A stretch of DNA of 64,000 bases from the human T2T-CHM13v2.0 reference genome, Homo sapiens, in the NCBI RefSeq assembly GCF_009914755.1, contig NC_060938.1; one strand, given 5' to 3'. Each line of letters opens with the position of its first letter. The stretch's first letter is position 1. Of the stretch, positions 1 to 61,830 are shown piece by piece. Under the pieces are notes generated by a model that saw only the letters and a list, made by a program, of their open reading frames with translations, had not been told where the DNA came from and ran no database searches. The translations under genes and the position numbers were made by a program.

Positions 1-304
1 CAACGGGACCCTCCTGCTGGCCCACGTGGCTGCCAGAGCCCATGCTGGCACGACGCTCCAGCAGGTCGGCGTCCCTGCGGAACACACTACCGGTGACATG
101 GCTAGCATGACCCTCCTTCCTGGCAGTGACACTGTTGATGTGAACCCCAGTTTCACATCTGTCATTTGTAAATAGGACCACTTTCCCTTTTCTCTCTCCC
201 TTCCATTCACAGGGCTTTTCATTCTCTCTCTTTCTGCCTCCGTTTCAGATATTTACTCACCTTTTTCTCTCTCACTATGTCTGCCGTGGTCTCCATGAGA
301 GTGC

Positions 305-640
305 GCCACATAAGTTTCCGCCATTAAAAGTCATGAATTGAGTGGCTTTTAGTATAACTGTGGTCGTGCAATTTCAATTTTAATTCGCAATCCATTGTAG
401 AACGTCTTATCACCCCCGACCAGAGAAGAACCCTGTAGACATTAGTCACTCCTCATTCTCTCTCAAACCCTCTTCCTGACCCTCAGCCCTAGGTAGCAAC
501 TACCTAGTGCGATCAACCCCATATGCACAGATATCCATATTGTGGACATTTCCTACAAACGGAATTGCACAATAGGTGAGCTGTTATGACTGACATAACA
601 CGTAGCACAATATTTTCAAGATTCATCCACATTGTAGGCT
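305..640 (-). mobile_element. Old L1M (L1MB/ME-like) 3' end fragment
   Basis: Resembles antisense L1M 3'UTR motifs (gagtggcttttagtata...tagaacgtcttatcacccc...ggacatttcctacaaacggaat...caagattcatccacattgtag); diverged. Confidence 0.6.
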
Positions 641-694
641 GACCCACAGGGGGAAACCATTTTGTGGGGAGTTTTAGTGACACCGGGTGTTTTG

Positions 695-800
695 TCCTTC
701 TTTTCGTCCTTCTTTCCTTCCTTCCTTCTTTCCTTCCTTCCTTCCTTCCTACCTTCCTTCTTTCCTTCCTTCCTTCCTTCCTTCCTTCCTTCCTTCCTCC
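695..800 (+). repeat. (TTCC)n simple repeat
   Basis: Direct tandem ttcc/cctt units. Confidence 0.95.
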
Positions 801-1059
801 TATTTGTCTCTTACTCCTTCTGCCCTCTCTCTTTCATATGCCTTAGGTGCATCCCACATTCTGCGTTTTTTTGGGGAAATCCTCGACAGGTGCAGGAAAA
901 TTGTGTTATTGTAACTATTTACCGCTATCTCTCTTTCACGGCTCTCCATCAGTTGTGAACATCTATTGGTTTATCCCAAGTCACTAAGCATATTTTTATT
1001 AGGTACACCTGTTTTTCCTTATACAGCTGTTTCTGGAGTATAGGGTCGCATACTCACAA

Positions 1060-1155
1060 ACCCAGTGTAACTCAGAAACGCATCTAATATTCCAATAAAC
1101 CCATCTTAACGTTGAAAAATCATGAATCAAACCATCATAAGTTACGGTTTGTCCG
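1060..1155. mobile_element. Tigger4/Zombi-type DNA transposon remnant
   Basis: ccaataaacccatcttaacgttgaaaaatc...aaccatcataagtt resembles the Tigger4a core. Confidence 0.45.
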
Positions 1156-1534
1156 TGGATATGGGTGTCATCAATTCCATTGTATTCAGTAATGCTGTAC
1201 ACCATTAACAATGGCAGACTGATTGGGAGTGTATATTGATAGCATTATAACAGTCAGTTATTAGAGGGATACTTCTTTAACCTGACTGAAGAAGTGATCT
1301 AATGGCTTTAGTACAGTGCATGATTATGTGAGATGTTTTGAGACAGAGTAGTACATTTGTGAATGAAATTTTATGGCTTTTTTTCACTTAGTAGGAACCA
1401 TTGTGTGTGGAAAAGTGAGAAAATTGCTTTCTGCTGTAGGGTCTGGCATTCATTGTGGATTTAAGCTTATTTTTCTGTGAGCAAATCTTATTCAATAAAA
1501 TACTATTCTTTATACTAAAAAACAAAAACAGTGG

Positions 1535-1850
1535 TGATGTGTGGTCATTATCCTCAGCAAACTAGTCTAGGGAAAGAAAACCAAACGCCACATTCTCACT
1601 TAAAATGGGAGCAGAAAAATGAGATCACATGGACACTGGAAGGGGAACAACACACACTGGGGCCTTTCGGGAGGCAGAGCTTTAAGAAAAACAGCTACTG
1701 CATGCTGGGCTTAATACCTAGGTGATGGGTTGACAGGTGCAGCAAACCACCATGACCCACGTTTACCTTAGTAACAAATCTGCACATCCTGCACATATAC
1801 CCCAGAACTTAGAAACGAAACGAAACAAAAGAAAACGAAAAAGCAATAGC
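1535..1850 (+). mobile_element. L1PA/PB 3' end with A-rich tail
   Basis: cattatcctcagcaaacta...ggtgatgggttgacaggtgcagcaaaccaccatg...cccagaacttag followed by a degenerate poly(A). Confidence 0.85.
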
Positions 1851-2024
1851 AAAGCGCTAAAGGCAAAATAAAGTTTCCAACTCCGAAAGTGACAGACCAA
1901 TGTTTGGTTCAAATCATGGTTCTCAGCCCAGGCGCCATAAGGTCAGGATAAAGAATTTGATTACATATTGTAAATAAGACATGCAACAAATGACCAGAAA
2001 GATTATTCTCAACATATGTGTGTC

Positions 2025-2490
2025 TTCTAATTCAATGGTGACACTATCTACCGGGACATAGCATTAGATTCCAAAGGGCTGAGTCCCGCCAGACAGGCCT
2101 CCCACACTCATAACAACGGGAAGCCCTACGTTGTATTACCTGTGCTTCTCAGCAACTGGCTATAAATCAGGTTGCCACCACTCCCAGATTTAGTTGCATT
2201 CATTGGCTGGAAGAGCTCACAGCACGCAGAGAAACACTTACATTTGCCGTTGTATTTTAGCGGACATTGCAAAAAGTTCAGAAATAAATGTGGGGCCCGG
2301 CATGTGGGGAGGGGTGCACTGCCTTCCAGGAAGTGTTATCCAGAAGCTCTCTGAACCCAGTCCTTTTGGGTTTTTATGGAGACCTCATTCTATAGGCATG
2401 ATGGGTTAAACCATAGGCTATTGGTGATCAACTCCACCTGAGGCTCTCAACCCTCCCTGGAAATTGGGGTTGAGGCTTTGCCATTCTCAG
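2025..2490. mobile_element. MER21-like LTR
   Basis: acactatctaccgggacatagcattagattcc...gggctgagtccc and cagaagctctctgaacccagtccttttgggtttttatggag match recalled MER21B/C motifs. Confidence 0.7.
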
Positions 2491-2557
2491 TCTGACTAAA
2501 AGAAGTTACCCAAACGGAATTTTAAAACAGATGAGCATAACTGGACTCTTAATTAGA

Positions 2558-2568
2558 TGATTGGATTA
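2558..2568 (-). promoter_or_regulatory. Perfect DUX4 binding motif (TAATCCAATCA on - strand)
   Basis: + strand TGATTGGATTA at 2558-2568 matches TAAYCYAATCA; an overlapping near-match TAATTAGATGA lies at 2550-2560. Confidence 0.65.
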
Positions 2569-3030
2569 TCTGGACACACACCTTGATATTCCAAACCGGA
2601 GCACCCTCATCCAACGAATGCTCCACCCAACTGGCTCCCAAGTCTCCACGTGGTTCCAGAGCAAAGGAATGTTTATACAACGCATATCTCTACTTTTTCT
2701 TCAAAGTCTTTTCGCTTACACGGAAAGACTTCTTCAACTGCCATGCATCAGGGTCAGGGGGAGGTCTTGTTGCAACACACATCTGTGGATCTCCGGGATT
2801 TGATTGTGGCAAGGATGCTGCTGGTGTCGAAACCACAACGTGGGAACCACAGAACCACTGTTTGGTTTTCAGTGTTTCAGTGCATACAATTCCTAATATA
2901 TCTGGCCAAGAAAACTTGGAAGTTCTTAGATTGTCCCAAAGGTGGCGCATGAAATCAAAGCAGGAGAACAGTTTCCTACGAGGTGTAGCCTGGGAAAGTT
3001 GGGGGTGACTGATGGAAAGGAGGAGTGAAG

Positions 3031-3101
3031 CTCCGCCCTTTCCGCTGCTAGGCTGCGCCCGAGGCTATTTAAACCCACCCTGGCTGGCCTGTACTCAGAT
3101 C
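3031..3101 (+). promoter_or_regulatory. Core promoter: GC box, TATA-like box and Inr (predicted TSS A3097)
   Basis: CCGCCC 3033-3038; TATTTAAA 3066-3073; TCAGATC 3095-3101 matches YYANWYY with +1 A exactly 31 nt after the TATA start; local CpG cluster at about 3030-3190. Confidence 0.6.
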
Positions 3102-3221
3102 TTCGCGGAGCGGATCAGCGGCCTGAGCGTTTGGCGGACTCTGCGTGGACTTGGAGCTCACGGCGTCTTGCGACTTGAAAGCGGATTCAGAGGACAGGAC
3201 AGAACACTTGGGCAAGTGAAT

Positions 3222-3360
3222 CTCTGTCTGTCTGTCTGTCTGTCTGTGTGTCTGTCTCATTGGTTGGTTGATTTCCATTTTCTTAAGGGGCACATACCTC
3301 ACACCGCACACACAGAAACACACACACACACACACACACGCACACACACGCACACACACT
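3222..3360 (+). repeat. (CTGT)n and (CA)n microsatellites, inside a putative 5'UTR intron
   Basis: Tandem units at about 3222-3258 and 3305-3360. Confidence 0.9.
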
Positions 3361-3420
3361 CCTTCCTTCTGCGAGTTAGAAAATTAGTAGGGGCCCCTGG
3401 GAGCTGCAGGTTTCCTAATC

Positions 3421-6012
3421 ATGTCTGCACCTAAGAACAGTAGGGTCTTGTCTGGCTCTTCTTATGAACGGTCCCCCAGCCTGGACTCCCCAAGGTCCAT
3501 GCGAGCCTCACCCAGCTTCTCCCTCTCCCCTCTCAGAAACTCAGGCTTAAGGGGAAGCTCCTCACCAGGGATCCGGACCTACTATTCACCATCACCTAGG
3601 GCTTCACCACACTCACCTCTGTCATCACCAGAATCCCACAAGCGCCCATTTCCCTGTCCTCACCGTGATGGGCAATCAATGAAGCCATCGGGCTCTCCCG
3701 TGTCCTCCTCTGAGGATTCCTCAGAGTCCCCACGATCATCAATAATATACCACATGTTCTTACTGCCATCACCCAGCAGCTCACCCCCAGCTCTCGGGGG
3801 GTCTCCTGTGTCTCCCAGCTACTCTCCAAACAACCCCAGATTTCAGCTGGAGTCAGCCCCCCACACCCAGGAATCACCTACAAACTCACGAGCCTCACGG
3901 TGCTCCACCCCTGTGTCTTTCATCTCTTCACCCCCAGGCCTCAGGGACTCTCCTGTGGCTCCCAGTTCCTCTCCAGCCATCCCCAGGTTCCTGCGGGAGT
4001 CAGCCCCATGCACCCAGGAGTCCCCCAGAGACTCACATGTCTCGGGAGAATATGAGCGGTCCCCCAGCCCTGACTCCTCAAGATTCAGGCCTGCCTCACC
4101 CAGCTTCTCCCTCTCCCCTCCCAGAAACTCAGACCCAAGGGGCAGCTCCTCACCAGGGATGTGGAAGTACTCTACATCATCCCGCAGGGCTTCACCACTC
4201 TCACATCCATCATCAACAGAATTCCACAGCTTTACGTTTCCCTTTCCTAACCAAGCAGGACAGTCACTCATGTCATTGTGTTCTCCCGTGTCCTCCTCTG
4301 GAGATTCTTCACAGTCACCTCATTCATCAATAATATACCATATGTTCTTACTGCCATCATCCAGCAGCTCATCCCCAGCCACCCATGACTCTCCTGTCTG
4401 TCCCAGCTACTCTCCAACCACGCCCAGATTTCAGCGGGAGTCTGTACCCCACACCCCAGAAACACCTACAAACTCACAGACCTCAGTGAGATCCTGGCCA
4501 GTCTCTCTCACGTCTTCACCCCCAGCCCTTACGGACCCTCCAGTCTGTCCCAGCTACTCTCCAACCACGCCCACATTTCAGCGTGGGTCAGTTCCAGGAA
4601 CCCAGGGATCACCGCCAAGCCCACCACTTTCACTGAGTTACTCCCCAGTCTCTAGCACGTCTTTATCTCCAACCCTCAGGGACTCGCCTGACTGTCCCAG
4701 CTACTCTCCAAACACGCCCACACTTCAGCGGGAGTCCGTTGCAGGCACCCAGAAATCACCACCAAACTCACCAATTTCACTGCGTTACTCCCCAGTCTCT
4801 CTCATGTCTTCACCATCCCTCAGGGACTCTCCTGTCTGTCCCAGCTACTCTCCAACCACGCCCACATTGCAGCTGGAGTCAGTTCCAGGCACCCCGGAAT
4901 CACCACCAAACTCACCAATTTCACTCAGTTACTCCTCAGTCTCTAGCACGTCTTTATCTCCAACCCTCAGGGACCCTCCAGTCTGTCCCAGCTACTCTCC
5001 AACCACGCCCACATTTCAGCGTGGGTCAGTTCCAGGAACCCAGGGATCACCGCCAAGCCCACCACTTTCACTGAGTTACTCCCCAGTCTCTAGCACGTCT
5101 TTATCTCCAACCCTCAGGGACTCGCCTGACTGTCCCAGCTACTCTCCAAACACGCCCACACTTCCGCGGGAGTCCGTTGCAGGCAACCAGAAATCACCAC
5201 CAAACTCACCAATTTCACTGCCTTACTCCCCAGTCTCTCTCATGTCTTCACCATCCCTCAGGGACTCTCCCGTCTGTCCCAGCTACTCTCCAACCACGCC
5301 CACATTGCAGCTGGAGTCAGTTCCAGGCACCCCGGAATCACCACCAAACTCACCAATTTCACTCAGTTACTCCTCAGTCTCTAGCACGTCTTTATCTCCA
5401 ACCCTCAGGGACTCTCCTGTGTGTCCCAGCTACTCTCCAACCACGCCCACACTTCAGCGGGAGTCAGTTCCAGGCACCCCGGAATCACCACCAAACTCAC
5501 CAATTTCACTCAGTTACTCCTCAGTCTCTAGCACGTCTTTATCTCCAACCCTCAGGGACTCTCCTGTCTGTCCCAGCTACTCTCCAACCACGCCCACATT
5601 TCAGCTGGAGTCAGTTCCAGGCACCCCGGAGTCACCACCAAACTCTCCAGTTTCACTCAGTTACTCCCCGGTCTCTCTCATGTCTTCACCCCCAGCCCTC
5701 AGGGACTCTCCTGTGTGTCCCAGCTACTCTCCAACCATGCCCAGATTTCAGCGGGAGTCAGTTCCAGGCACCCAGGTATCACCTACAAACTCAGCAGTTT
5801 CACTGAGTTACTCCCCTGTCTCTCTCATGTCTTCACCCCCAGCCCCCTGGGACTCTCCTGTCTGTCCCAGCTACTCCCCCACCACGCCCAGATTTCAGAG
5901 GGAGTCAATAGTCTTTATAATTTGGTATGTTTTTGCAGTGGCTGTTACCAGTTGTTCCTTTCCGTGTTTAGTGCTTCCTTCAGGAGCTCTTGTAAGGCAG
6001 GCATGGTGGTGA
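3421..6012 (+). CDS. Putative 863-aa Ser/Pro/Thr-rich tandem-repeat protein encoded by the ACRO1 array (CTD-like PSYSPTTP motifs); last ~35 codons read from antisense L1
   Basis: ATG with A at -3; no stop in 2589 nt; 49-aa repeat; length variants are in frame; upstream core promoter. Expression cannot be shown from sequence. Confidence 0.5.
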   Translation: MSAPKNSRVLSGSSYERSPSLDSPRSMRASPSFSLSPLRNSGLRGSSSPGIRTYYSPSPRASPHSPLSSPESHKRPFPCPHRDGQSMKPSGSPVSSSEDSSESPRSSIIYHMFLLPSPSSSPPALGGSPVSPSYSPNNPRFQLESAPHTQESPTNSRASRCSTPVSFISSPPGLRDSPVAPSSSPAIPRFLRESAPCTQESPRDSHVSGEYERSPSPDSSRFRPASPSFSLSPPRNSDPRGSSSPGMWKYSTSSRRASPLSHPSSTEFHSFTFPFPNQAGQSLMSLCSPVSSSGDSSQSPHSSIIYHMFLLPSSSSSSPATHDSPVCPSYSPTTPRFQRESVPHTPETPTNSQTSVRSWPVSLTSSPPALTDPPVCPSYSPTTPTFQRGSVPGTQGSPPSPPLSLSYSPVSSTSLSPTLRDSPDCPSYSPNTPTLQRESVAGTQKSPPNSPISLRYSPVSLMSSPSLRDSPVCPSYSPTTPTLQLESVPGTPESPPNSPISLSYSSVSSTSLSPTLRDPPVCPSYSPTTPTFQRGSVPGTQGSPPSPPLSLSYSPVSSTSLSPTLRDSPDCPSYSPNTPTLPRESVAGNQKSPPNSPISLPYSPVSLMSSPSLRDSPVCPSYSPTTPTLQLESVPGTPESPPNSPISLSYSSVSSTSLSPTLRDSPVCPSYSPTTPTLQRESVPGTPESPPNSPISLSYSSVSSTSLSPTLRDSPVCPSYSPTTPTFQLESVPGTPESPPNSPVSLSYSPVSLMSSPPALRDSPVCPSYSPTMPRFQRESVPGTQVSPTNSAVSLSYSPVSLMSSPPAPWDSPVCPSYSPTTPRFQRESIVFIIWYVFAVAVTSCSFPCLVLPSGALVRQAWW
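3463..5907 (+). repeat. ACRO1 147-bp satellite array (diverged 588-bp duplicated head plus 11 core monomers)
   Basis: cccagctact anchor at 4402, 4549, 4696, 4840, 4987, 5134, 5278, 5425, 5572, 5719, 5866 (spacing 147 or 144); further anchors at 3814 and 3961 (variant cccagttcct); 147 bp is the ACRO1 unit length. Confidence 0.9.
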
Positions 6013-7200
6013 CAATATCTCTCTGCATTTGCTTGTAAAGGATTTTATTTCTCCTTCAATTATGAAGCTTAGTTTGGCTGGATATGAAATTCTGGCTTGA
6101 AAATTCTTTTCTTTAGGAATGTTGTGTATTGGCCCCCACTCTCTTCTGGCTTGTAGGTTTTCTGCCAAGAGATCCACTGTTAGTCTGACGGGCTTCCCTT
6201 TGTGGGTAACTCAACCTTTCTCTCTGGATGCCCTTAATATTTTTTCCTTCATTTCAACCTTGGTGAATCTGATGATTTTGTGTCTTGGGGTTGCTCTTCT
6301 TGAGGAGTATCTTAGTGGTGTTCTCTGTATTTCCTGAATTTGAATGTTGGCCTGTCTTGCTATGTTGGGGAAGTTCTCCTGGATAATATCCTTAAGAGTT
6401 TTTTCCAACTTGGTTCCATTCTTTCTGTCACTTTCAGGTACACCAATCAAACGTAGATTCAGTCTTTTAACATAGTCCTCTATGTCTTGGAGGCTTTGTT
6501 CATTTCTTTTCACTCTTTTTTCTCTAATCTTGCCTTCTTGCTTTATTTCATTGAGTTGATCTTTAATCTCTGATATCCTTTCTCCTGATTGATTGAATCA
6601 ACTATTGATACTTGTGTATGCTTCATGAAGTTCTTGTGCTGGGTTTTTCAGCTCCATGAGGTCATTTATATTCTTCTCTAAACTGGTTATTCTAGTTAAC
6701 AATTCGTCTAACCTTTATTTTTCAGACTCTTAGCTTCCTTGCATTGGGTTAGAACGTGCTCCTTTAGCTCGGAGGAGTTTTTTATTACCCACCTTCCGAA
6801 GCCTACTTCTGTCAATTCGTCAAACTCATTGTCTGTCCAGTTTTGTTCCCTTCCTGGCGGGGAGTTGTGATCTTCTGGAGGAGAAGAGGCATTCTAACTT
6901 TTGGAGTTTTCAGCATTTTTGCACTGGTTTCTCCCCATCTTTGTGGATTTATTTACCTTTGGTCTTTGATGTTGGTGATGTCTATACTATTCCTTTCTGT
7001 TTCTTAGTTTTCCTTCTAACAGTCAGGTCCCTCTCTGCAGGTTTGCTCGAGTTTGCTGGAGGTCCACTCCAGACCCTTTTTGCCTGGGTATCACCAGTGG
7101 AGGCTCAGTTGGAAATGCATGAACCACCTGCCTTCTGTGTTGATCTCACTGGGTGCTGCAGGCCGGAGCTGTTCCTATTCAGAAATCTTGCCAGATCTCC
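5908..7200 (-). mobile_element. L1PA (about PA7-PA10) fragment: internally deleted 5'UTR plus disrupted ORF1, cut just after the ORF1 stop
   Basis: Minus-strand ORFs give L1 ORF1p peptides (NEQSLQDIEDYVKRLNLRLIGVPE; RISYPAKLSF); L1 5' end motif ggagctgttcctattc near 7165-7200. Confidence 0.92.
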
Positions 7201-7983
7201 TGTAATACTTTAATGAATGGGTGTAGTCCTCTCTTCTCAAGGTCCCCAAATATCTTGAGGTTCCTGGGCCCTTCAGAAAGTGACATTCTTTACTTCTTAC
7301 CACAAGGATAGCAACTTTGTAAAGGACCTTTGTAGACAGGACATCAAGCCAGTCATTCTAAGGGGCTTTGTATTGGTGCTATAAAGTCAACCTCAATTCC
7401 TTAAAGTGGTCTGGTTGTATCTGCCATTCGAGTTAAAGCCTTGATAAAACAAACAGTGTCTCCAATTGAATCTTGTTACCAAAAACAGATTCTTATTGAA
7501 ATTATGTAAATAATTATATTGCCATAATTTAAGAATGCTCACGAATGGCTTCTGAATTCTGGAGAAATCAGCTAGGGAGACAGATAAATGGCTCAAATTT
7601 TTGTTCACAATGTAGTTTATCTAATGTATTGTAAGTTAAAAATAGCTGAAAAGGAAAAAAATTCTTGACTTTGGAAAACAAAACATAAAGAGGATCAACA
7701 ATGTTTCTAATGGAAGGGCCATGGATAAAATCTTTTCCTTCTTTTATAAGTTCAGTCCCATATAACTAAATCTTGTTCTGCTTGATTTCAAATAGCAATT
7801 CTCATTCAGTTTTTTGTGTTTTGCTTGATTTCAATTAGAAATTCTCATTCAGCTTTTTAGAGTCCTGGAAGATTTTCCTAGTCCAATGGTATGATCCCCA
7901 AAGTTATCTGAAACCATATTCAAGAGAACTTGTCAGAATCCTTTCCATTAGAAGTAATTTAGATGATAGCTGATTGTAAAGGC

Positions 7984-8277
7984 TTTTTTTTTTTTGAGAC
8001 ACGGTCTGGCTCTATCACTCAGGATGGAGTGCAGTGGCATGATCTTGGTTCACTGCAATCTCTCCCTCCCAAACTCAAGCCATCCTCCTACCTCACCCTC
8101 CGAAGTAGCTGGGACCATAGGCATGCATCATCATGCCTGGCTAATTTTTGTATTTTTGTAGAGACAGGATTTTACCATGTTGCCTAGGCTGCTTTCAAAC
8201 TTCTTAGTTTAAGCAATTCACCCACCTCGACCTTGCAAAGTGCTGGGATATTTACACGCATGAGCCACCATGCCCTG
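7984..8277 (-). mobile_element. AluJ-like
   Basis: Poly-T followed by gagacacgg...gagccacca. Confidence 0.9.
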
Positions 8278-8699
8278 CACCATGCCCAGCACCGTGCCCT
8301 GCATGGCCTCCAGCACCATGCCCGGCCTGTAAAGGGTTTTAGAGAAGAACTTCAATCAATCACCGTGGATGACAAAAACTTAGAATAGCCTTTGGTTAAA
8401 ATCCAGTGGAAGTTCTCAAATCTCAAGAAAATTTAGTTATTTGTATTATATGTAGCATTTTAAGATCACAGCCAGAATCATGACTGATGGCAACGCATCA
8501 GATCCATCAGACTTCCACAAATTTTATATAATCTTTAGAATATTTATATTAATAATATATCTATACACATACAACTTTAGAAAATATTTAACATCATCAA
8601 AATTATGACTGAAACCCTATTAGATTTTTATAATTTATATAAGGTTTAAAATATTTATATTAATAACATACCTATGAAAGTAACCAAAAGAAGATTTAA

Positions 8700-8991
8700 G
8701 CTGGGCACAGTGGCTCATGCCTGTAATCCCAACACTTTGGGAGGCCAAGTTGGACAGATCATCAGAGGTCAGGAGTTCGACACCTGCCTGGCCAACATGG
8801 AGAAATCTTGTCTCTACTAAAAATACAAAATTAGCCGGGCATGGTGGCACGTGTCTGTAGTCCCAGCTACTTGGGAGGTTGAGGCAGAAGAATTGCTTGA
8901 ACCTTGGGGCAGAATTTGCAGTGAACCTAGATCATGCCACAGCACTCCAGCCTGGGTGACAAAGCAAGATTCTGTCTCAGAGAAAAAAAAA
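8700..8991 (+). mobile_element. AluS-like
   Basis: gctgggcacagtggctcatgcc...A tail. Confidence 0.93.
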
Positions 8992-9109
8992 GAAGATTTA
9001 GTGTTATTTATCTTTTGGCAATGCTTCCCATACAATGTTACCAACTAAGTTTTAGCAAAGATGTCAAAAAATTGAAAACATTTGACCTAAACGGAATGGC
9101 AGTTTATTG

Positions 9110-9412
9110 TTTTTTATTTTATTACTTTTTTGAGACAGGGTCTCACCCTGTTGCCCAGGCTGTAGTGCAGTGGTGAAATCATGGCTCACTGCAGCCTCAA
9201 CCTCCCAGGCTCAGGTGATTCTCCACCTTAGTCTCCCAAGTAGCCAGGACTATGAGCACTTGCTACCACACCTAGCTAGCTTTTGTATTTTTAGTAGAGA
9301 TGGGGTTTTGCCATTTTGCCCAGGCTGGACTTGAACTCCTGGGCTCAAGTGATCCACCCACCTTGGCCTCCCAAAGGGCTGGAATTACAGACAAGAGCCG
9401 CTGCACACAGCC
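9110..9412 (-). mobile_element. AluJ-like
   Basis: Antisense Alu dimer. Confidence 0.9.
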
Positions 9413-10560
9413 ACATGTCATTTTTAAATAACATTCATTTAATTAGCATGACAACCAAAAGACATCAAAAGCAACATAGAAGGTTACATGGAAGTGAAAA
9501 CTGAAAACCCTCAGTTTTCCCAAGTAATTAAAAAAAAATAAAGGCAACACATGGATTATCTTGATAAAACCTAAAATATTTATTACAGGCCAGTCATTTA
9601 AAGGGTAAAAGCTCCTGTGGCATAATTGTGTCTTCTTATGGGAAGCTAATTTAAATCACTTGGAAGTCAAACCAATGACAAGGAGACTTGAATTTAATTA
9701 GACATAGAAAGAGTGTGTCCAGGGTCATGAGTGAGCATAATATTACAGAGGAATGTAAACAGGAAAACCAGAGCATAGAGCAGTGGGGATCCATAGCTCA
9801 CAATGATAGCATGGAAGTTTCCTGGTTACATGAAGTAATTAAGACATATTTAAAAGCCAAGAGTACAAAATTAGACCTGATGAAAAAGCTGAAGTAGTTA
9901 TCATCCCAGCCAAGCAGGAAACCCAAGCCTTTTATTCCTTCTCAAGAAGAAACAGAAGAAAATTGTGTGATCTGTGAGTCATGTGTAACATGAAAGTACA
10001 GGAAACGTTGAACTTCTGATATACAAATCTGAAAAGATTTTATAGTAACAGATATCAGGATTAAAAGTCAATATTTATTACCTCTTATTATGAGCAAATA
10101 AATACATTAAGAAAACCTTGTTGTTTTAACCAAATTTTTTTGCTTTTTATCACTATGTTTTTAATATTACAGCTAATTTAAATAAACTTTATAAACAATC
10201 TATCTGATCTCAATCAGTTTTGACCTCGAGGTAAGATTTACATAAACTTTTAATAACCTTGTATAATTTTTTCCATCTTTCCCAACTTTTTATACATATT
10301 TAGTTTTATCTATCTTTTTTATTCCTTCAATTTAAAATAATCCTTAAAAATCTCTAAGCGAATTTACTTTCTCTGAAAGAAAAACCCGTATACATTTTGC
10401 ATACAGAATTGTTTCTCTTGTATCTAGTAGTCTTAATCACATATATCTACCAAGATATTAACACTTAGTAACCCTTATTTTAATAAAAAACTTAGGAAGA
10501 AAGAAATCTTGAATTGTCATATAGCAGTATCTTACATATGAGAATGATTTCATAATTTAG

Positions 10561-10881
<321 letters not shown>

Positions 10882-10960
10882 TAAGTTTTAAATTGGAAAT
10901 AACCCAGATATTTAATGAGTATCTATTATTTAATTTAACATAACTAAAATTTCAAAAATA

Positions 10961-11232
10961 GGCTGGGCATGGTGGCTCACACCTGTAATCCCAACACTTT
11001 AGGAGGCCAAGGCAGGAGTATCGTGAGACTAGCCTGAGCAAAATAGCGAGATGCTGACTCTACAGAAAAAATAAAAGTTAGCTGACCATGGTGTTGCATG
11101 CCTGTAATTAACAGCTTCTTGGGAGGTTGAGGTGGGAGGATCCCTTGAGTGCAGGAGGTCAAGGTTGCAGTGAGCTGTGATCATGCCACTGCACTTCAGC
11201 CTGGGTGACAGGCAGAGACACTGGCGCAAAAA
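10961..11232 (+). mobile_element. AluJ-like with internal deletion
   Basis: ggctgggcatggtggctcac...ggaggtcaaggttgcagtgagc. Confidence 0.88.
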
Positions 11233-11712
11233 CATTTCAAAAATACATTAAAATGTCTTGTATAGACACTTATCCATTTACATTTACTTATTTTTGACAG
11301 TTTATCTAGAGTATTTGTGAGAACTGAGGTATTAGACAAAGCTAGTCATCATTTCTAGGTTATTTTCTTTTTAACCATGTTATAGCCTGTGAATATCAGG
11401 TGTTCACATAAGTGAGGATTTCAAAGTTAAATACTAGGGTATTTTACCAATAACTCAGAAAATTACATTATTTTTGTTCAACAAACCGTATTAAATTGGT
11501 CTTATGTATTTAAAAAATCACATAAACAAATATTCTTTTTTTCACTGTGTTTTAGCTTTATAACCTTCATGCCAAACCCTAGCACCTTAAAATATCTAGC
11601 AAATGTAAATATAAAACACAGTCAAAAATGTATGCTGACAATTCTGAAGACATTTCTATTTTTATTTTATCAATACTTTTTAAATTATTTGTATTTATAA
11701 AAGAACTCTTTT

Positions 11713-12454
<742 letters not shown>

Positions 12455-56725: not shown

Positions 56726-59700
56726 TCTTTCATCAAAGCCTGGAGAATGGTTACATCTCCTGGATGATCAGTTCAGAAACATGTCACAATGCCCCTCCCT
56801 GCGGAGCCTAGAGAAGATTTGCATCATTTGGGTGATCAGTGCAGAGATATTTCACAATGTCCCCTGTACAAAAAGCCCGGGAATGATTTACATCACCTCG
56901 GTGATCAGTGCATAGGTATGTCAGAAATCCTCAGTAGGCTGAAACTAGACAAGGGTTACATCATTTAGGCGATCAGTGTAGAGATATGTGAAAATTCCCG
57001 TGTAGACAGAGCCTAGACAAGTGTTACATCACCTAGTGATCAGTGCAGGGTTAAGTCATAAAGCCTCCTGTAGGAAGAGTGTAGACAAGTGTTTCCTCCC
57101 TGTGGTGATCAGTGCAGAGATATGTCACAAAGCTCCTATAAGCAGAACCTTGAAAAGGGTTACATCACCTGTTGGATCAGTGGAAATGTATATCACAAAG
57201 TCCCTGTAGGCAAAGCCCAGACAATTGTTACATCACCTGGGTGAGCAGTGTAGAGATCTGTCACAATGCCCCTGTAGGCAGAGCTTAGACAAGGGTTACA
57301 TCACCTGGGTGATCAGTGCAGAGATATGTCAAAACGCTCCTGTAGGCTGAACCTAGACAGGAGTTACGTCACCTGGGTGATCAGTGCAGAGACATGTGAG
57401 AATTCCCGTGTAGGCAGAGCCTAGACCAGTGTTACATCACCTAGGTTATCAGTGGAGGTATAAGTCATAAAGCCTCCTGTAGGCCGAGCGTAGAGAAGAC
57501 TTCTCCCCCCAGGGTGAACAGTGCAGAGATGTGTCACAAAGCCCCTGTAGGGAGAGCCTAGACAAGAGTTTCATCACTTGGTTGATCAATACAGAAATGT
57601 GTCACAATGTCCATGTAGGCAGATTTAAGACAAGAGCCCATCTCCTCGGTGATCAGTGCAGAGAGATGTACCAATGTCCCCTGTAGGCAGTGCCTAGACA
57701 AGAGTTGCATCACCTCAGAGATCAGTGTATAGATACGTCACAAAGCCTTCTATAGGCAAAGCCCATACAAGGCTTACATCACCTAGGTGATCAGTGCAGT
57801 GATATGTCACACAAATCCCTGTAGACAGAGCCTAGACAAGAGTTACATCACCTGGGTGATCAGTGCAGATATATGACACAATGCCCCCATAGACAGAGCC
57901 TAGAGAACACTTCCATCACCTGGGTGATCAGTGCAGAGATGTGTCACAAATCCCTCTCTAGGCAGAGTAAAGAGAAGAGTCCCATCACCTGGGTGATCAG
58001 TGCGGAGATATTTCACAATGCCCCCTGTAGGCTGAGAGGGGACAACAGTTACATAACCTAGGTGATCTGTGCAGAGCTATGTCAAAACGCCCCTGCAGGC
58101 AGAGCCTAGATAAATGTTACATCACCTGGGTGATTAGAGCAGAGATACGTCACAATACCCCCTGTACGTGGAGCCTAGACAAGAGTTACATAACCTGGGT
58201 GATCAGGTCAGAAATATGTCACAAAGCAGGTGTAGGCCGAGCCTAGACAAGAGTTACATCTCCTGGGTGATCAGTGCAAAGATATGTCACAAAGCCCCGT
58301 GTAGACAAATCCCAGAAAATAGTTACATCACCTCGGTGATCACTGGAGACATCTGTCACAATTCCCCTTTAGTCGCAGCTTAGACAAGGGTTACGTCACA
58401 TGAGTGATCAGTGCAGAGATATGTCATTAAGACCCCATAGGCAGATCTAAGACAAGAGTCCATCACCTGAGTGATCAGTGCAGAAATATGCCACAATGTC
58501 GTCAGAAGGCAGATATAGACAAGAGTTACATCACCTGCGTGATCACTGCAGAGATATGTCACAATGCTGCTGTAGGCAGAGCCTAGACAAAAGTCCCATC
58601 ACCTGGGTGATCAGTGCAGAGTTATGTCACAATGCCCCCTTTGGCAGAGTAAACAAATGTTACATCACCTGGGTGATCAGTGCAGAGTTGTGTCACAAGC
58701 TCCCTGTAGCCAGAGCCTAGACAAGAGTTACATCAGCTGTGTGATAAGTGCAGTGACATGTCACAATGTCCCTGTAGCCATATCCTTGACAAAAGTGACA
58801 GCACCTGGGTGATCAGTGCGGAGATATGTCACAATGTCTCCAGTAGGCAGAGCCTAGACAAGAGTTACATCACCTGGCTGATCAGGGTAGAGATATGTTA
58901 CAATGCCCCCTGTAAGCAGATCCCAGACAAGAGTTGCATCACTTCGGTGATCAGTGCAGAGATATGTCTCAATGACCCCTGTCGGCAAAGACTATAGAAG
59001 AGTTACATCATGTTGGTGATCAGTGCAGAGATATGTGAAAATGCCCCCGTAGGCAGAGCCTAGACAAGAGTTACATCAGCTGGGTGAGCAGTGCAGAGAT
59101 ATCTCACAATACCCACTGTAAGCAGAGCCTAGAAAAGAGTTACATCACCTGGGTGATCAGTGCAGAGATATATCATAAATCCCACTGTAGGCAAAGCCTA
59201 GACAAGTTTTACATCACCTCAGCGATCAGTGCAGAGATATGTCCCAAAGTCCCTCTAGGCAGACCCTAGACAAGAGTCACATCTCCTGGGTGATCAGTGC
59301 AGAGATAAATCACAATGCCCCCATAGGCAGAGCCTAGACAAGTGTTACATAACCTGGGTGATCCGTGCAGAGTGATGTCACAAGGCCCTCTCCAGGCACA
59401 GACTAGAAAAGAGTTACATTACCTGAGGGATCAGTGCAGTGATATGTCACAATGCCCCCTGTAGGCAGTGCATAAAGAAGAGTTGCAACACTTGGGTGAT
59501 CAGTGCAGCGATGTATCACAATGTCCCCTGTAGGCAGAGCATAGAGAATAGTTGCATCACCTGGGAGATCAGTGCAGAGATATGTCACAATGTCCCCTGT
59601 AGGCAAAGCCTAGGCAAGAGTTACAACACCTTTGTCATCAGTTCAGGGATATGTGAAAACGTCCCTGTGGGCAGAGTCTAGACAAGAGTTACGCCACCTG

Positions 59701-61830
59701 GTTGATCGGTGCAGTGATATTACACAATACCCCCTGTAGGCAGATCCTAGAAAAGAGTTGAATCACCTACGTGATCAGTGCAGAGATATGTCACAATGCC
59801 ACTGTGGGCAGAGCCTAGAGAAGAGTTACATGGCCTAGGTAATCATTGCAGAGATACATCGCAATTTCCCTGTAGGCAGAGCCTTGACAAGTGTTACATC
59901 AGCTGTGTGATCATTGCAGGTATATGTCACAATGCACCTTGTAGTCAGATCCTAGAAAAGAGTTACATCACCTAGGTGATCAGTGCAGACATTTGTCAAA
60001 ATTCCCTGTAGGTAGTGCTTATAAAATTGTTATATCACCTAAGTGATCAGTGCAGAGTTATGTCACAAAGCTCCTGTAGGCAGAACTTAGATGAGTTACA
60101 TCACCTGGGTGATCAGTGCAAAGGTATGTCACAAAGCCCCCTGTAGGCAAACCCTAGACAATAGTTACATCACTTGGGTGATCAGTGGCGAGATCTCTCA
60201 CAATTCTCCTGTCGGCAGAGCTTATACAACAGTTACATCACCTGGGTGATCAGTTCAGAGATATGTCACAATGCCCTCAAAGGCAGATCCAAGACAAGAG
60301 TCCATCACCTGGCTGATCAGTGCAGAAATATGTCACAATGCCCCCTTAGGCAGAGACTAAACAAAAGCCCCATCACCTGGATGATCAGTGCAGAGTTATG
60401 TCACAAAGTCCCTTTAGGCAGATCCTAGACAAGTGTTGCATCACTTGGATGATCAGTGCAGATTTATGTCACAATGCCAATGTAGGCAGAGCCTAGACAA
60501 GGGTTACATGACCTAGGTGATCAGTGCAAAGATACAGCGCAATGTCCCTGTAGGCAGAGCCTTGACAAGTAGTACATGACCTGAGTGATCATTGCATGGA
60601 TATGTCACAAAGCACCCTGTAGGCAGATTCTAGAGAATAGTTATATCACCTGGGTGATCAGTGCATAGATATGTCACAAGCCCCTGTAAGCAGAGCCTAG
60701 ACAAGAGTTATATCTCCTGGGTGATCAGTGCAGTGATATTTCACAATGCCATGAAGCCAAGCCTAGACTAATGTTACAGCACCTGGGAGATCAGTACAGA
60801 GATATGTCACAATGTCCCCAGTAGGCAGAGACCAGGCAAGAGTTGGATCACCTCGCGATCTGTGCAGAGATATGTCTCAATCTCCCTGTGGGCACAGCCT
60901 AGGCAAGAGTTACATCACCTCGGTTAACAGTGCAGAGACATGTCATAATGCCCCTGTAGGCAGAGCCTACACAAGTTTTACATCACTTAGGTGATCAGTG
61001 CAGAGATATGTCACAATACCCCCTGTAAGCAGAGCCTAGACAAGAGTTACATCACCTGGGTGATCAGTGCAGAGATATTTGACAAGGCCCCTTTAAGCAG
61101 AGCCTAGACAATAGTTACAACACCTGAGTCATCAGTGCAGAGATTTGTCACAATGCCCCTTTAGGCAGAGCTTAGACTAGAGTTACATAACCTGGGTGAT
61201 CAGTGCAGATATATGTCACAATGCCCCCATAGGCAAATCCAAGACAAGAATCCGTCACCTGGGTGATCAGTGCAGACATATGTGACAATGCCCCCCGTAG
61301 GCAGAGCCTAGAGAAGAGTCCCAACACCTGGGTGATCAATGCAGAGATATTTCACAATGACCCTGCAGGCAGAGCGTAAGGAAGAGTTAAATCACCTAGA
61401 TGATCAGTGCAGAGATATGTCAAAAGGCCCCCTATAGGCAGAGCCTGGACAAGAGTTACATCACCTCGGTGATCAATGCAGCGATATGTCACTATGCCCC
61501 TTAGGCAGAGCCTAGTCAAGCGTTACATCACGTCGGTGATCAGTGCAGAGATATGTCACAAAGTCCTCATACACAGAGCCTAGACTAGAGTCCCATCACC
61601 TGGGTGATCAGTGCAGAAATATGTCACAATGCCTCCATAGGCAGATCCAACACAAGGGTTACATCACCTGGGTGATCAGTGTAGAGATATGTCACAATGT
61701 CCCCATAGGCAGAGCCTAGACAAAAGTCCCATCACCTGGGTGATCAGTGCAGAGATATGTCACAAAGCCCCTGTAGGCAGAGCCTAGACAAGAGTTACAT
61801 CACTTTGTTGATCAGTTGAGAGATGTTTCA
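56726..61830 (+). repeat. Beta satellite (68-bp Sau3A/BSR), about 75 diverged monomers
   Basis: Repeat gatcagtgcagagatatgtcacaatgcccctgtaggcagagcctagacaagagttacatcacctgggt. Confidence 0.97.

What the first reader, a model, noticed from the sequence alone, without database searches (positions are those of the whole stretch)
4390..5907. Each ACRO1 monomer encodes an RNA Pol II CTD-like heptad (PSYSPTTP vs YSPTSPS)
Seen: each 48/49-aa core unit has CPSYSP(T/N)(T/M)P, often with a second YSPVS or YSSVS, and many SP/TP sites. Known: the RPB1 CTD consensus is Y1S2P3T4S5P6S7. Here Y1-S2-P3-T4-(T5)-P6 is retained with a phospho-acceptor at position 5 in most units. Inference: the protein could be a CTD mimic or decoy, a CDK7/9/12 substrate, or a condensate scaffold, and might cross-react with phospho-CTD antibodies. 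The resemblance at RNA level may already have been noted, but I know of no characterised protein.
Basis: partly seen in the sequence, partly recalled or inferred. Interest (0 to 1): 0.75.

Follow-up and report, generated by a model that had tools for sequence, protein, structure and literature searches.

The report
CTD-like heptads in ACRO1 satellite
A satellite repeat on the short arm of human chromosome 14 reads in one frame like a worn copy of the RNA polymerase II tail; the likeness is real but already published, the repeat lies inside a long reading frame inherited from an old mammalian gene, and the human copies show no sign that the protein sequence is being preserved.

Summary
Window 4387-5907 holds 10.4 ACRO1 units of 147 bp. 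Boots et al. 2020 (PMC7714431) already published it: 23/49 identity and the heptad repetitiveness.

I found the following in none of the ACRO1 papers I read. The array is the middle of a roughly 900-1340-aa ORF carried by each 6-kb ACRE unit. Its ATG, N-terminal part and Cys/His-rich C-terminal tail are colinear with predicted proteins of marmoset, two baleen whales and an unnamed 355-aa protein; a sheep protein matches the repeat region. So the array is an expanded coding repeat of an old mammalian gene, not a primate-only satellite.

Human copies show no amino-acid constraint: missense 332 against 327 expected, synonymous 133 against 127. The YSPTTPT heptad varies mostly at second codon positions. 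The window copy is cut at 5907 and lacks about 330 codons. Pfam's CTD model does not match. The CTD-decoy protein idea remains untested and is unsupported for this copy.

The parts
1..93 (+). Last about 31 codons of the ORF of the preceding ACRE unit. The window opens inside an ACRE tandem array.
   Evidence: blastn of the chr3 ORF C-part, positions 898-990, to window 1-93 at 92%
94..3390 (+). ACRE inter-ORF spacer. Window 1-2229 and 1-5776 align to a chr3 ACRE unit at 95% and 94%.
   Evidence: megablast of L021 against the window
2558..2568 (-). DUX4-type motif TAATCCAATCA (consensus recalled from memory), about 860 nt upstream of the ATG.
   Evidence: One match in the window, 0.75 expected by chance. 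The motif sits at the same relative place in 20 of 22 ACRE copies that could be examined. These copies are close paralogues, so this is a lead only.
3307..3359 (.). (CA)n microsatellite just upstream of the ORF
   Evidence: TRF; sequence
3391..6012 (+). Stop-to-stop open frame of 873 aa. The ATG is at 3421 with A at -3.
3421..4386 (+). N-terminal, non-satellite part of the ORF: a duplicated module (…SSIIYHMFLLPS…), each followed by two diverged ACRO1-like units.
   Evidence: Translation. It has 0 stops, against a mean of 6.6 in dinucleotide shuffles, P(0)=0.0025. Residues 1-134 are 42% identical to whale P0007 (E 4e-6) and 41% identical to P0035 (E 3e-11).
4387..5907 (+). ACRO1 array: 10 units of 147 or 144 bp plus a 57-bp stub, organised as a 438-bp higher-order repeat. 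Each unit reads as 7 degenerate CTD-type heptads.
5908..6012 (+). Breakpoint and unrelated sequence into which the frame runs before stopping. ACRE homology ends at 5907.
   Evidence: Full copies elsewhere continue …RFQRESASHTPESP… for about 330 more codons. No C-part match lies beyond 5907 in the window.

Best explanation
Window 4387-5907 is the central repeat region of the long ORF carried by the last, 3'-truncated unit of an ACRE (ACRO composite) 6-kb macrosatellite on the chr14 short arm.

Shown: the 147-bp ACRO1 unit encodes, in the ORF frame, seven degenerate heptads of CTD type. Ser/Thr is at positions 2 and 5, Pro at 3 and 6, and Tyr at position 1 in two of the seven. There is a 21-nt sub-period in the DNA.

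Shown: the whole ORF (ATG, N-terminal IYHMF module, 49-aa units, Cys/His-rich tail) is colinear with predicted proteins of non-human mammals. ACRO1 is therefore an expanded internal coding repeat of an old mammalian gene that primates amplified as part of a 6-kb unit.

Shown: the human copies, this one included, accumulate missense and synonymous changes in neutral proportions, and this copy lacks the last about 330 codons.

Inferred: this locus is a truncated, protein-wise unconstrained copy. What the family is known to do is at the RNA and transcription level. It is switched on by DUX4 at the 4-cell stage, and its nascent RNA binds Pol II and stalls elongation in cis (literature). It is not known to act as a CTD-decoy protein.

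Inferred: the CTD likeness most probably reflects an S/P-rich disordered repeat built from 21-nt subunits, not recent descent from POLR2A.
For: Array and frame. Heptad register above composition. phmmer against PDB hits only RPB1 chains below E 0.001 (13 of 14 listed, E 8.6e-8 to 3e-4), with heavy bias scores.

The ACRE unit and ORF recur. The 27-mer matches 2109 places in the genome with at most 2 mismatches. Of 30 arrays sampled on chr1, 2, 3, 4, 13 and 14, 21 are open through the array, with ORFs up to 1101 aa, the same upstream stop and Met at residue 10 or 11. ORFs of 956-1339 aa lie on chr15, 21 and 22.

The gene is old. Hits include marmoset P0004 (832 aa, 67% identity) and Rice's whale P0007 (34%), gray whale P0009 and sheep P0015 (matching the repeat region only). 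A profile search gave 76 proteins at E<=1e-3 and 20 at E<=1e-30. tblastn with composition correction runs colinear from the ATG, E 1e-9 to 1e-19. The human C tail is 46% identical to P0035 over 184 aa, E 2e-34. The N part matches at E 4e-6 and 3e-11. The N part is open against P=0.0025 in shuffles.

Evolution in human is neutral. Variable columns by codon position are 71/82/85 (N part) and 56/77/67 (C part). Observed against expected events are missense 332/327.2 and synonymous 133/126.9. NG86 omega is 0.54-2.15 in frame, against 0.44-2.6 in the control frames. Array monomer events fall 58/55/70 by codon position.

Truncation.

Literature: DUX4 activates ACRO1 transcription (PMC8990217 and PMC12776069, passages). 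ACRO1 RNA peaks at the 4-cell stage (PMC6545021, abstract and passages). ACRO1 RNA is a Pol II aptamer that blocks elongation in cis, and no stable transcript was seen in HeLa (PMC7714431).
Against: Most copies keep the frame open: 21 of 30 arrays, 32 of 36 N parts and 22 of 32 C parts without a stop or gap.

Nonsense events are fewer than a neutral spectrum predicts in the ORF frame, 8 against 18.9. This could mean selection for an open frame. One control frame shows a similar deficit (6 against 13.4) and the other does not (13 against 14.5), so the test is not frame-specific.

The paralogues are young and homogenised, 93-100% identical, so power to detect weak constraint is low.

A conserved ATG with A at -3 and DUX4-driven transcription make translation plausible. 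I had no expression, Ribo-seq or proteomic data.

Codon-level hints of kinship with POLR2A exist. Ser at heptad position 7 uses AGY and Ser at positions 2 and 5 uses TCN in both sequences. The best in-frame DNA identity, 85 of 147, is reached by only 4 of 100 synonymous resamplings.
Confidence: 0.6

Rival explanations
1. Intact ACRE ORFs are translated when DUX4 switches them on in cleavage-stage embryos. The S/P-rich, CTD-like disordered repeat then acts as a substrate or decoy for CTD kinases and CTD readers, or as a condensate scaffold. The window copy would be a truncated member.
For: Long ORFs with a conserved ATG in most copies. The CTD register is above composition. There are many SP/TP sites. 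Nonsense events are low in frame, 8 against 18.9. The gene is conserved across mammals, so the ancestor very likely made a protein. DUX4-induced, 4-cell-stage RNA is reported (PMC8990217, PMC6545021 passages).
Against: No amino-acid constraint in human copies. Only 2 of 7 heptads have Tyr and no two canonical heptads are adjacent. PF05001 does not match. ACRO1 inserts abolish elongation of their own transcript in a reporter, and no stable RNA was found in HeLa (PMC7714431). In the whale and sheep homologues, by my reading of the sequences, the CTD likeness is weaker. No protein evidence was found in the papers retrieved.
Confidence: 0.17
2. ACRO1 descends from POLR2A CTD coding sequence, by an old gene or mRNA fragment captured and re-amplified. 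This is the speculation in Boots et al. 2020. The likeness would then be homology.
For: There is a 21-nt sub-period. The core CCC AGC TAC TCN CCN ACC is nearly identical to CTD heptad DNA. In-frame identity is 85 of 147 against 68 and 64 out of frame. The position-specific Ser codon classes are shared: S7 uses AGY, S2 and S5 use TCN. Synonymous resampling reaches 85 in only 4 of 100 trials.
Against: DNA identity is only 58%. Same-codon matches are 55 of 168 against 47.8 expected. The N and C parts of the ORF give no RPB1 or other Pfam domain match. The 49-aa unit predates primates. The cetartiodactyl units (…WQTSPVSSAESPLGWGPDP…, ALSYSPISISSAGSPLGSPS) look less CTD-like to my eye, and by my count the whale short unit has a 20-aa period. 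If the seven heptads share one 21-nt ancestor, the codon-class agreement amounts to about one observation.
Confidence: 0.1
3. Nothing biological: a C-rich, purine-poor satellite strand that happens to lack stops and happens to spell S/P/T-rich peptides.
For: The strand is 38-40% C and 16-17% G. The other + frames have few stops (4 and 7 in the array). The POLR2A CTD exon is open in all three + frames too. phmmer bias scores are very high.
Against: Residue shuffles never reach the observed CTD identity, 0 of 300. The heptad autocorrelation is reached by 2 of 2000 shuffles. The non-satellite N part is open at P=0.0025. Colinear homologues exist in other mammals with composition-corrected E values down to 2e-34.
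Confidence: 0.03

Closest known systems
ACRO1 satellite / ACRE (ACRO composite), as described by Boots et al. 2020 (PMC7714431) and in PMC12767296
   Same: 147-bp unit. 6-kb higher-order unit shared between chromosomes at 94-95%. Location on an acrocentric short arm. An in-silico translation resembling the CTD heptad repeat (23/49 in the paper; 22-24/49 here).
   Different: Both papers call it primate-specific, and Boots et al. report no non-primate homologue. At protein level I find colinear homologues in baleen whales and a repeat-region match in sheep. Neither paper, in the parts I read, mentions the roughly 1000-aa ORF; 'open reading' occurs 0 times in the main text of PMC7714431. I did not see their figures or supplements (Fig. 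3e, SI Fig. S3).
C-terminal domain of RPB1 (POLR2A), heptad YSPTSPS, Pfam PF05001
   Same: Period of 7 residues. Pro enriched at positions 3 and 6, Ser/Thr at 2 and 5, Tyr only at position 1. Ser7 uses AGY codons and Ser2/Ser5 use TCN codons, as in the human CTD exon.
   Different: Tyr is present in 2 of 7 heptads only. One heptad (FQRESVP or LQLESVP) is almost unrelated. There is no PF05001 match at E<=10. No polymerase domains are present. DNA identity is 58% at best.
Coding macrosatellites such as D4Z4 (DUX4). The category and its examples are recalled, not from a call.
   Same: A multi-kb tandem unit, each with its own long ORF. Clustered on acrocentric short arms and pericentromeres. D4Z4-like units lie 21 kb and more beyond the window end on chr14. 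Transcribed at the cleavage stage (literature).
   Different: ACRE ORFs show no detectable amino-acid constraint among human copies. No function or protein product is known.
Automatic gene models: marmoset P0004 and Rice's whale P0007 (both named 'DNA-directed RNA polymerase II subunit RPB1' by their source), gray whale P0009, sheep P0015 (hypothetical proteins)
   Same: For P0004, P0007 and P0009: the same start (MSA…), the IYHMF module and S/P-rich repeat units with (S)YSP motifs. The marmoset model and the unnamed relatives P0011, P0035 and P0048 share the C-terminal …CPSTCYCHTLA.RR… tail. P0015 matches only the repeat region.
   Different: The window copy lacks the tail (truncated). Repeat number and sequence differ strongly between lineages. 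The whale models end instead in a DUX4-like C-terminal exon.

Membership tests
RPB1 CTD repeat (Pfam PF05001, RNA_pol_Rpb1_R) | Match to the family HMM at or near its cut-off | tested here: not met
   0 Pfam families at E<=10 for the 873-aa window ORF. No PF05001 hit for two full-length copies. A genome-wide PF05001 search listed 17 matches (13 chr17 POLR2A exon, 3 chr16, 1 chr1) and none in an ACRE, though only 150 of 629 candidates were scored.
RPB1 CTD repeat | Consecutive heptads each starting with Tyr (Tyr every 7 residues) | tested here: not met
   Tyr is at position 1 in 2 of 7 heptads of the unit; spacings are 28 and 21 residues.
RPB1 CTD repeat | 7-residue period with S/T-P at positions 2-3 and 5-6 | tested here: met
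   Lag 7+14+21 identities sum to 33 against 19.6 +/- 3.4, reached by 2 of 2000 shuffles. Gapless identity to the human CTD is 22-24 of 49 against 15.8 +/- 1.3.
RPB1 CTD repeat | Attached to the RPB1 catalytic core | tested here: not met
   No polymerase domain in the ORF. The N and C parts match only the unnamed mammalian family.
RPB1 CTD repeat | Common descent with POLR2A CTD exon DNA | tested here: inconclusive
   85 of 147 in frame against 68 and 64 out of frame. Same codon in 55 of 168 against 47.8 expected. 4 of 100 synonymous resamplings reach 85. Shared Ser codon classes.
ACRO1 satellite in an ACRE / ACRO composite unit | 147-bp tandem unit | tested here: met
   TRF period 147, 10.4 copies.
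ACRO1 satellite in an ACRE / ACRO composite unit | Embedded in the shared roughly 6-kb higher-order unit | tested here: met
   Window 1-5776 aligns to a chr3 unit at 94% over 5.8 kb. Arrays recur every 6.2-6.6 kb on chr3, 4 and 13.
Unnamed mammalian S/P-repeat ORF family (alignment A1) | N-terminal MSA… start and IYHMF module | tested here: met
   Window 3421-3822 against P0007: 42% identity, E 4e-6. Against P0035: 41%, E 3e-11.
Unnamed mammalian S/P-repeat ORF family (alignment A1) | C-terminal Cys/His-rich tail (…CPSTCYCHTLA.RR…) | tested here: not met
   Absent from the window copy, which is cut at 5907. Present in other human copies; L021 tail against P0035 gives E 2e-34.
Functional protein-coding gene (in human) | Purifying selection on the amino-acid sequence | tested here: not met
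   Missense 332 against 327.2 expected, synonymous 133 against 126.9. Codon-position counts are flat. Omega overlaps the control frames.
Functional protein-coding gene (in human) | Transcript and translation evidence | not testable with these tools
   Literature only: DUX4-induced RNA with a 4-cell peak (PMC8990217, PMC6545021). No protein evidence was found in the papers retrieved.

The most novel reading that the evidence does not exclude
The 'ACRO1 satellite RNA' that DUX4 switches on at the human 4-cell stage is the mRNA of a multi-copy gene family, by my estimate on the order of 200 ACRE units from the 2109 anchor matches. The family descends from an old mammalian gene that in whales lies next to, and is spliced to, a DUX-type C-terminal exon. 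The intact copies would be translated into a 900-1340-aa disordered protein. Its 7x7 CTD-like repeats would soak up or recruit CTD kinases and readers, or join Pol II condensates, at embryonic genome activation. Selection would act on repeat composition and an open frame rather than on exact sequence.
Probability: 0.15. Interest if true: 0.75.

Novelty: already known. Interest (0 to 1): 0.4.

Why it matters

What may matter is the context found here. ACRO1 arrays are treated as a primate-specific satellite whose RNA peaks at the 4-cell stage and is induced by DUX4. If the arrays are the expanded coding repeat of an old mammalian gene, with a conserved start and a conserved Cys/His-rich tail, three things follow. 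First, 'satellite expression' at genome activation and in FSHD cells may partly be expression of a multi-copy ORF. Second, 'primate-specific' needs revising. Third, the origin of one acrocentric macrosatellite becomes traceable. Public Ribo-seq and proteomic data mapped to T2T-CHM13 can test this.

Tried and rejected
- Pfam on the window ORF and on two full copies gave nothing meaningful. Pfam on 23 homologues gave no family.
- Rfam on window 1-12000 gave no family.
- ESM Atlas with P0035 gave no usable hit.
- I considered that the S/P ORF might be the middle region of a DUX protein. hhalign of profile A1 against a human DUX4-like ORF gave probability 0.14%, so I rejected this. Only the gray-whale C-terminal 46 aa match DUX4.
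- Selection for an open frame: the nonsense deficit in frame 0 (8 against 18.9) is mirrored in control frame 1 (6 against 13.4), so it is not usable as evidence.
- The first monomer diversity scan used an anchor inside the CPSYSPTTP core and may understate its diversity. I repeated it with an independent anchor. The core is then only modestly less diverse (0.064-0.084 against 0.10-0.12). The last heptad in that run is misaligned by the 3-bp length variant and should be ignored.
- The z of about 6 for 'mean-of-best' DNA identity is inflated, because resampling treats monomers as independent. I use only the 'best' statistic (4 of 100).
- Literature search was badly framed (ACRO1 was not forced) and returned nothing relevant.
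- One search failed on a coordinate slip and was redone.
Full report
**1. The observation**

Tandem Repeats Finder reports window 4387-5907 as 10.4 copies of a 147-bp unit at 86% matches. It also reports a 438-bp higher-order period made of 147+147+144 bp. The + frame that starts at 3391 is open from stop to stop to 6012, 873 aa. Its first ATG is at 3421, with A at -3.

Sliced in frame, the array gives eight 49-aa units, two 48-aa units and a 19-aa stub. Every one of the 11 units carries CPSYSP. The next two residues are TT in 8 units, NT in 2 and TM in 1. A second YSPVS or YSSVS is present in 9 of the 10 full units. A 27-mer covering the motif occurs 11 times in the window with at most 3 mismatches; shuffles gave none.

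**2.

A 49-aa unit is 7 x 7 residues. Written in heptads it reads DSPVCPS / YSPTTPT / (F,L)Q(R,L)ESVP / GTPESPP / NSPISLS / YS(P,S)VS(S,L)(T,M) / S(L,S)(S,P)P(T,A)LR. Pro falls mostly at heptad positions 3 and 6, Ser/Thr at 2 and 5, and both Tyr residues at position 1.

- I took the human POLR2A CTD exon from the same genome (locus L009, found with Pfam PF05001). The best gapless 49-aa identity to it is 22-24 of 49.
- Residue shuffles of the unit gave 15.8 +/- 1.3, with a maximum of 21; 0 of 300 reached the observed value.
- Identities at lags 7, 14 and 21 are 11, 10 and 12, summing to 33. The null is 19.6 +/- 3.4, and 2 of 2000 shuffles reached 33.
- The DNA shows the same period at lags 21, 42 and 63: 60, 56 and 58 of 147.
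- phmmer of the array translation against all PDB chains returns RPB1 chains and nothing else below E 0.001. Thirteen of the 14 listed sequences are RPB1, at E 8.6e-8 to 3e-4, though with very large bias scores.

**3. It is already published**

Boots et al. [quoted passage not shown] They also report:

- ACRO1 RNA is a Pol II-binding aptamer that blocks elongation in cis.
- The arrays sit in 6-kb units, which they name ACREs.
- No stable transcript was seen in HeLa.
- No non-primate homologue was found.
- They speculate that ACRO1 derives from CTD mRNA.

So the likeness is in print at the protein-translation level, not only at the RNA level. I did not see their figures or supplements.

**4. 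What the array sits in**

The genome holding the window can be searched. The 27-mer matches 2109 places with at most 2 mismatches, on many chromosomes. I fetched 19 regions and found 30 arrays with at least 3 anchors on chr1, 2, 3, 4, 13 and 14.

- Spacings between anchors are multiples of 3 in 232 of 234 cases. These copies share ancestry, so this reflects very few independent events.
- In 21 of 30 arrays the frame is open through the whole array.
- The frame begins at the same upstream stop, has Met at residue 10 or 11 (MSAPKNSRVLSGSSYERSPS…), and in complete copies runs about 330 codons beyond the array, giving ORFs up to 1101 aa.
- Copies on chr15, 21 and 22 reach 956-1339 aa.

The window copy stops being ACRE at 5907, in mid-unit (…RFQRES|IVFIIW…). 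Full copies continue …RFQRESASHTPESP…. Window 1-93 is the tail of the previous unit's ORF, and window 1-5776 aligns to a chr3 unit at 94%. The finding therefore lies in the last, 3'-truncated unit of an ACRE array.

**5. The ORF is an old gene**

A protein search with a full-length human copy found:

- a marmoset model (P0004, 832 aa, 67% identity);
- a Rice's whale model (P0007, 633 aa, 34%);
- a Plasmodium ovale "hypothetical protein", 100% identical over about 30% of the query, which I read as human contamination.

The sources of the first two name them "DNA-directed RNA polymerase II subunit RPB1".

Further searches added a gray whale protein (P0009), a sheep protein (P0015, matching the repeat region only) and several unnamed ones. 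A profile search of 1.84 billion representatives gave 76 proteins at E<=1e-3, 48 at E<=1e-10 and 20 at E<=1e-30. Many of these are fragments and some are mixed-frame human contaminants.

The similarity is colinear and is not merely S/P composition:

- tblastn with composition correction aligns whale residue 1 to the window ATG and runs on for about 500 residues, at E 1e-9 to 1e-19.
- The non-repeat N part of the window ORF is 42% identical to the whale protein (E 4e-6) and 41% identical to P0035 (E 3e-11).
- The human C-terminal 180 aa are 46% identical to the tail of P0035 over 184 aa (E 2e-34). Both share …CPSTCYCHTLA.RR….
- P0035 is an N part, one unit (SPVSPSYSPTIPRF…) and the tail. This suggests a short ancestral form whose unit was expanded in primates.
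- The 332-codon non-satellite N part of the window ORF has no stop. Dinucleotide shuffles average 6.6 stops, with P(0)=0.0025.

Boots et al. 2020 reported no non-primate homologue, and a December 2025 preprint (PMC12767296, passages) repeats "primate-specific". That does not hold at protein level. In the ACRO1 papers that I retrieved and read I saw no mention of this ORF or of its homologues.

**6. Is the human protein sequence preserved?**

I found no sign of it. I aligned 36 copies of the N part and 32 copies of the C part, which are 92-100% identical.

- Variable columns fall 71/82/85 and 56/77/67 on codon positions 1/2/3.
- I counted distinct variant events against a spectrum-matched neutral expectation:

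| Frame | Missense obs / exp | Synonymous obs / exp | Nonsense obs / exp |
|---|---|---|---|
| ORF frame (0) | 332 / 327.2 | 133 / 126.9 | 8 / 18.9 |
| Control frame 1 | 346 / 323.3 | 118 / 128.4 | 6 / 13.4 |
| Control frame 2 | 322 / 311.5 | 132 / 136.5 | 13 / 14.5 |

- One control frame shares the nonsense deficit, so I cannot use it as evidence for selection on an open frame.
- Pairwise NG86 omega is 0.54-2.15 in frame, against 0.44-2.6 in the control frames.
- Among 190 array monomers (95 distinct), events fall 58/55/70 by codon position. They are 117 missense, 64 synonymous and 2 nonsense.

- The two heptads DSPVCPS and YSPTTPT are only modestly less diverse than the rest: 0.064-0.084 against 0.10-0.12.
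- Their events fall 12/16/16 by codon position.
- Missense to synonymous is 30:14, the same ratio as elsewhere (67:32).
- The variation inside YSPTTPT is mostly at second positions (ACC>AAC, ACG>ATG, ACA>AGA).
- The Tyr, Ser and Pro codons are invariant at all three positions.

That pattern points to DNA-level homogenisation or constraint, not to protein-level selection. The paralogues are young, so power to detect weak constraint is limited.

**7. Homology with POLR2A or convergence?**

This is unresolved, and I lean towards convergence.

For homology:
- In-frame DNA identity to the CTD exon peaks at 85 of 147, against 68 and 64 out of frame.
- The core CCC AGC TAC TCN CCN ACC is nearly the CTD's own.
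- Ser at heptad position 7 uses AGY codons (15 of 15), while Ser at positions 2 and 5 uses TCN codons (61 of 61). The human CTD shows the same split: S7 is 22 AGY and 4 TCN, S2 is 36 TCN and 6 AGY, S5 is 36 TCN and 13 AGY.
- Only 4 of 100 synonymous-codon resamplings reach 85.

Against homology:
- Identity is only 58%.
- Same-codon matches are 55 of 168 against 47.8 expected.
- PF05001 does not match.
- Nothing else in the ORF gives an RPB1 or other Pfam match.
- The unit is older than primates. By my reading of the sequences, the whale and sheep units are less CTD-like.
- If the seven heptads stem from one 21-nt ancestor, the codon agreement is about one observation.

**8. How it most likely works**

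- *Shown:* a truncated copy of a macrosatellite-borne ORF, with a CTD-like 7x7 repeat.
- *From the literature:* DUX4 activates ACRO1 transcription (PMC8990217 and PMC12776069, passages). The RNA peaks at the 4-cell stage (PMC6545021). The sense RNA binds Pol II and stops elongation in cis (PMC7714431).
It is at the same place in 20 of 22 copies that could be examined. The copies are close paralogues, and one match per window is what chance gives.
- *Inferred:* in human the family is protein-wise unconstrained, and this copy cannot make the full product. The established activities are at the RNA and chromatin level. Translation of intact copies in cleavage-stage embryos remains possible and is the main rival reading.

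**9. Verdict**

The functional reading is unsupported for this copy and untested for the family. These contradict "primate-specific satellite" and give a concrete, testable alternative reading of "ACRO1 satellite expression".

Noticed in passing
P0009 and P0007 (whale proteins); G000 chr14:4115633-4227905 and many other places: Both whale gene models splice the S/P-repeat ORF to downstream exons, and the gray whale model ends in a DUX4-type C-terminal motif. Its last 84 aa hit 148 places in the human genome, on acrocentric short arms, chr1 around 128 Mb and the chr10 q-end; I read these as D4Z4-like units (the name is recalled). The nearest lies 21 kb beyond the window end. The match to a human DUX4-like ORF is 50% over 46 aa, E 1e-6. 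An ancient linkage between this gene and DUXC is possible, but I did not test it.
   Followed up: partly
L034 = G000 chr19:47280923-47285200, minus strand 601-3567: This solitary copy on chr19 is the best human match to the whale protein (E 4.1e-9). It reads 697 aa, then one in-frame stop, then 290 aa. It may be the ancestral single-copy locus, now a pseudogene in this assembly.
   Followed up: partly
window 2558-2568 (-): TAATCCAATCA fits the DUX4 binding consensus (recalled from memory). It lies about 860 nt upstream of the ORF ATG and is kept in 20 of 22 ACRE copies examined, including the diverged chr2 copies as TAATTCAATCA.
   Followed up: partly
human ACRE ORF C-terminus (e.g. L021:2142-2681:-), P0035, P0048, P0011, P0013: A Cys/His-rich, basic tail (…CPSTCYCHTLA.RR…NG…HHP…) is conserved across the mammalian homologues. 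It has no Pfam family. It is the best-conserved part of the protein, and its function is unknown.
   Followed up: no
P0005: A Plasmodium ovale wallikeri 'hypothetical protein POVWA2_070090 / PIR superfamily' is 100% identical to the human ACRE ORF over 30% of the query. This is almost certainly human contamination in that assembly, annotated as a parasite protein.
   Followed up: no
window 6214-6597 (-): An L1 ORF1p fragment (Pfam Transposase_22, E 5.8e-47, plus the trimerisation domain) lies on the minus strand about 300 bp after the ACRE breakpoint at 5907. No poly-T marks a simple insertion at the break.
   Followed up: partly
window 56750-61824: A tandem repeat of 68 bp, 74.5 copies, 76% matches. 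By period and location it is probably beta satellite; the name is recalled and not tested.
   Followed up: no
L009 (G000 chr17:7416409-7419450): The POLR2A CTD exon is open in all three + frames (399, 425 and 176 aa). This is a reminder that open frames in pyrimidine-rich coding repeats are cheap.
   Followed up: no
window 3307-3359 and proteins P0018, P0028, P0056: A (CA)n run lies directly upstream of the ATG. The in-frame stretch just before the ATG (G.L.AAGF..MSA) looks similar between human and a whale-type fragment. This suggests a conserved 5' leader.
   Followed up: no
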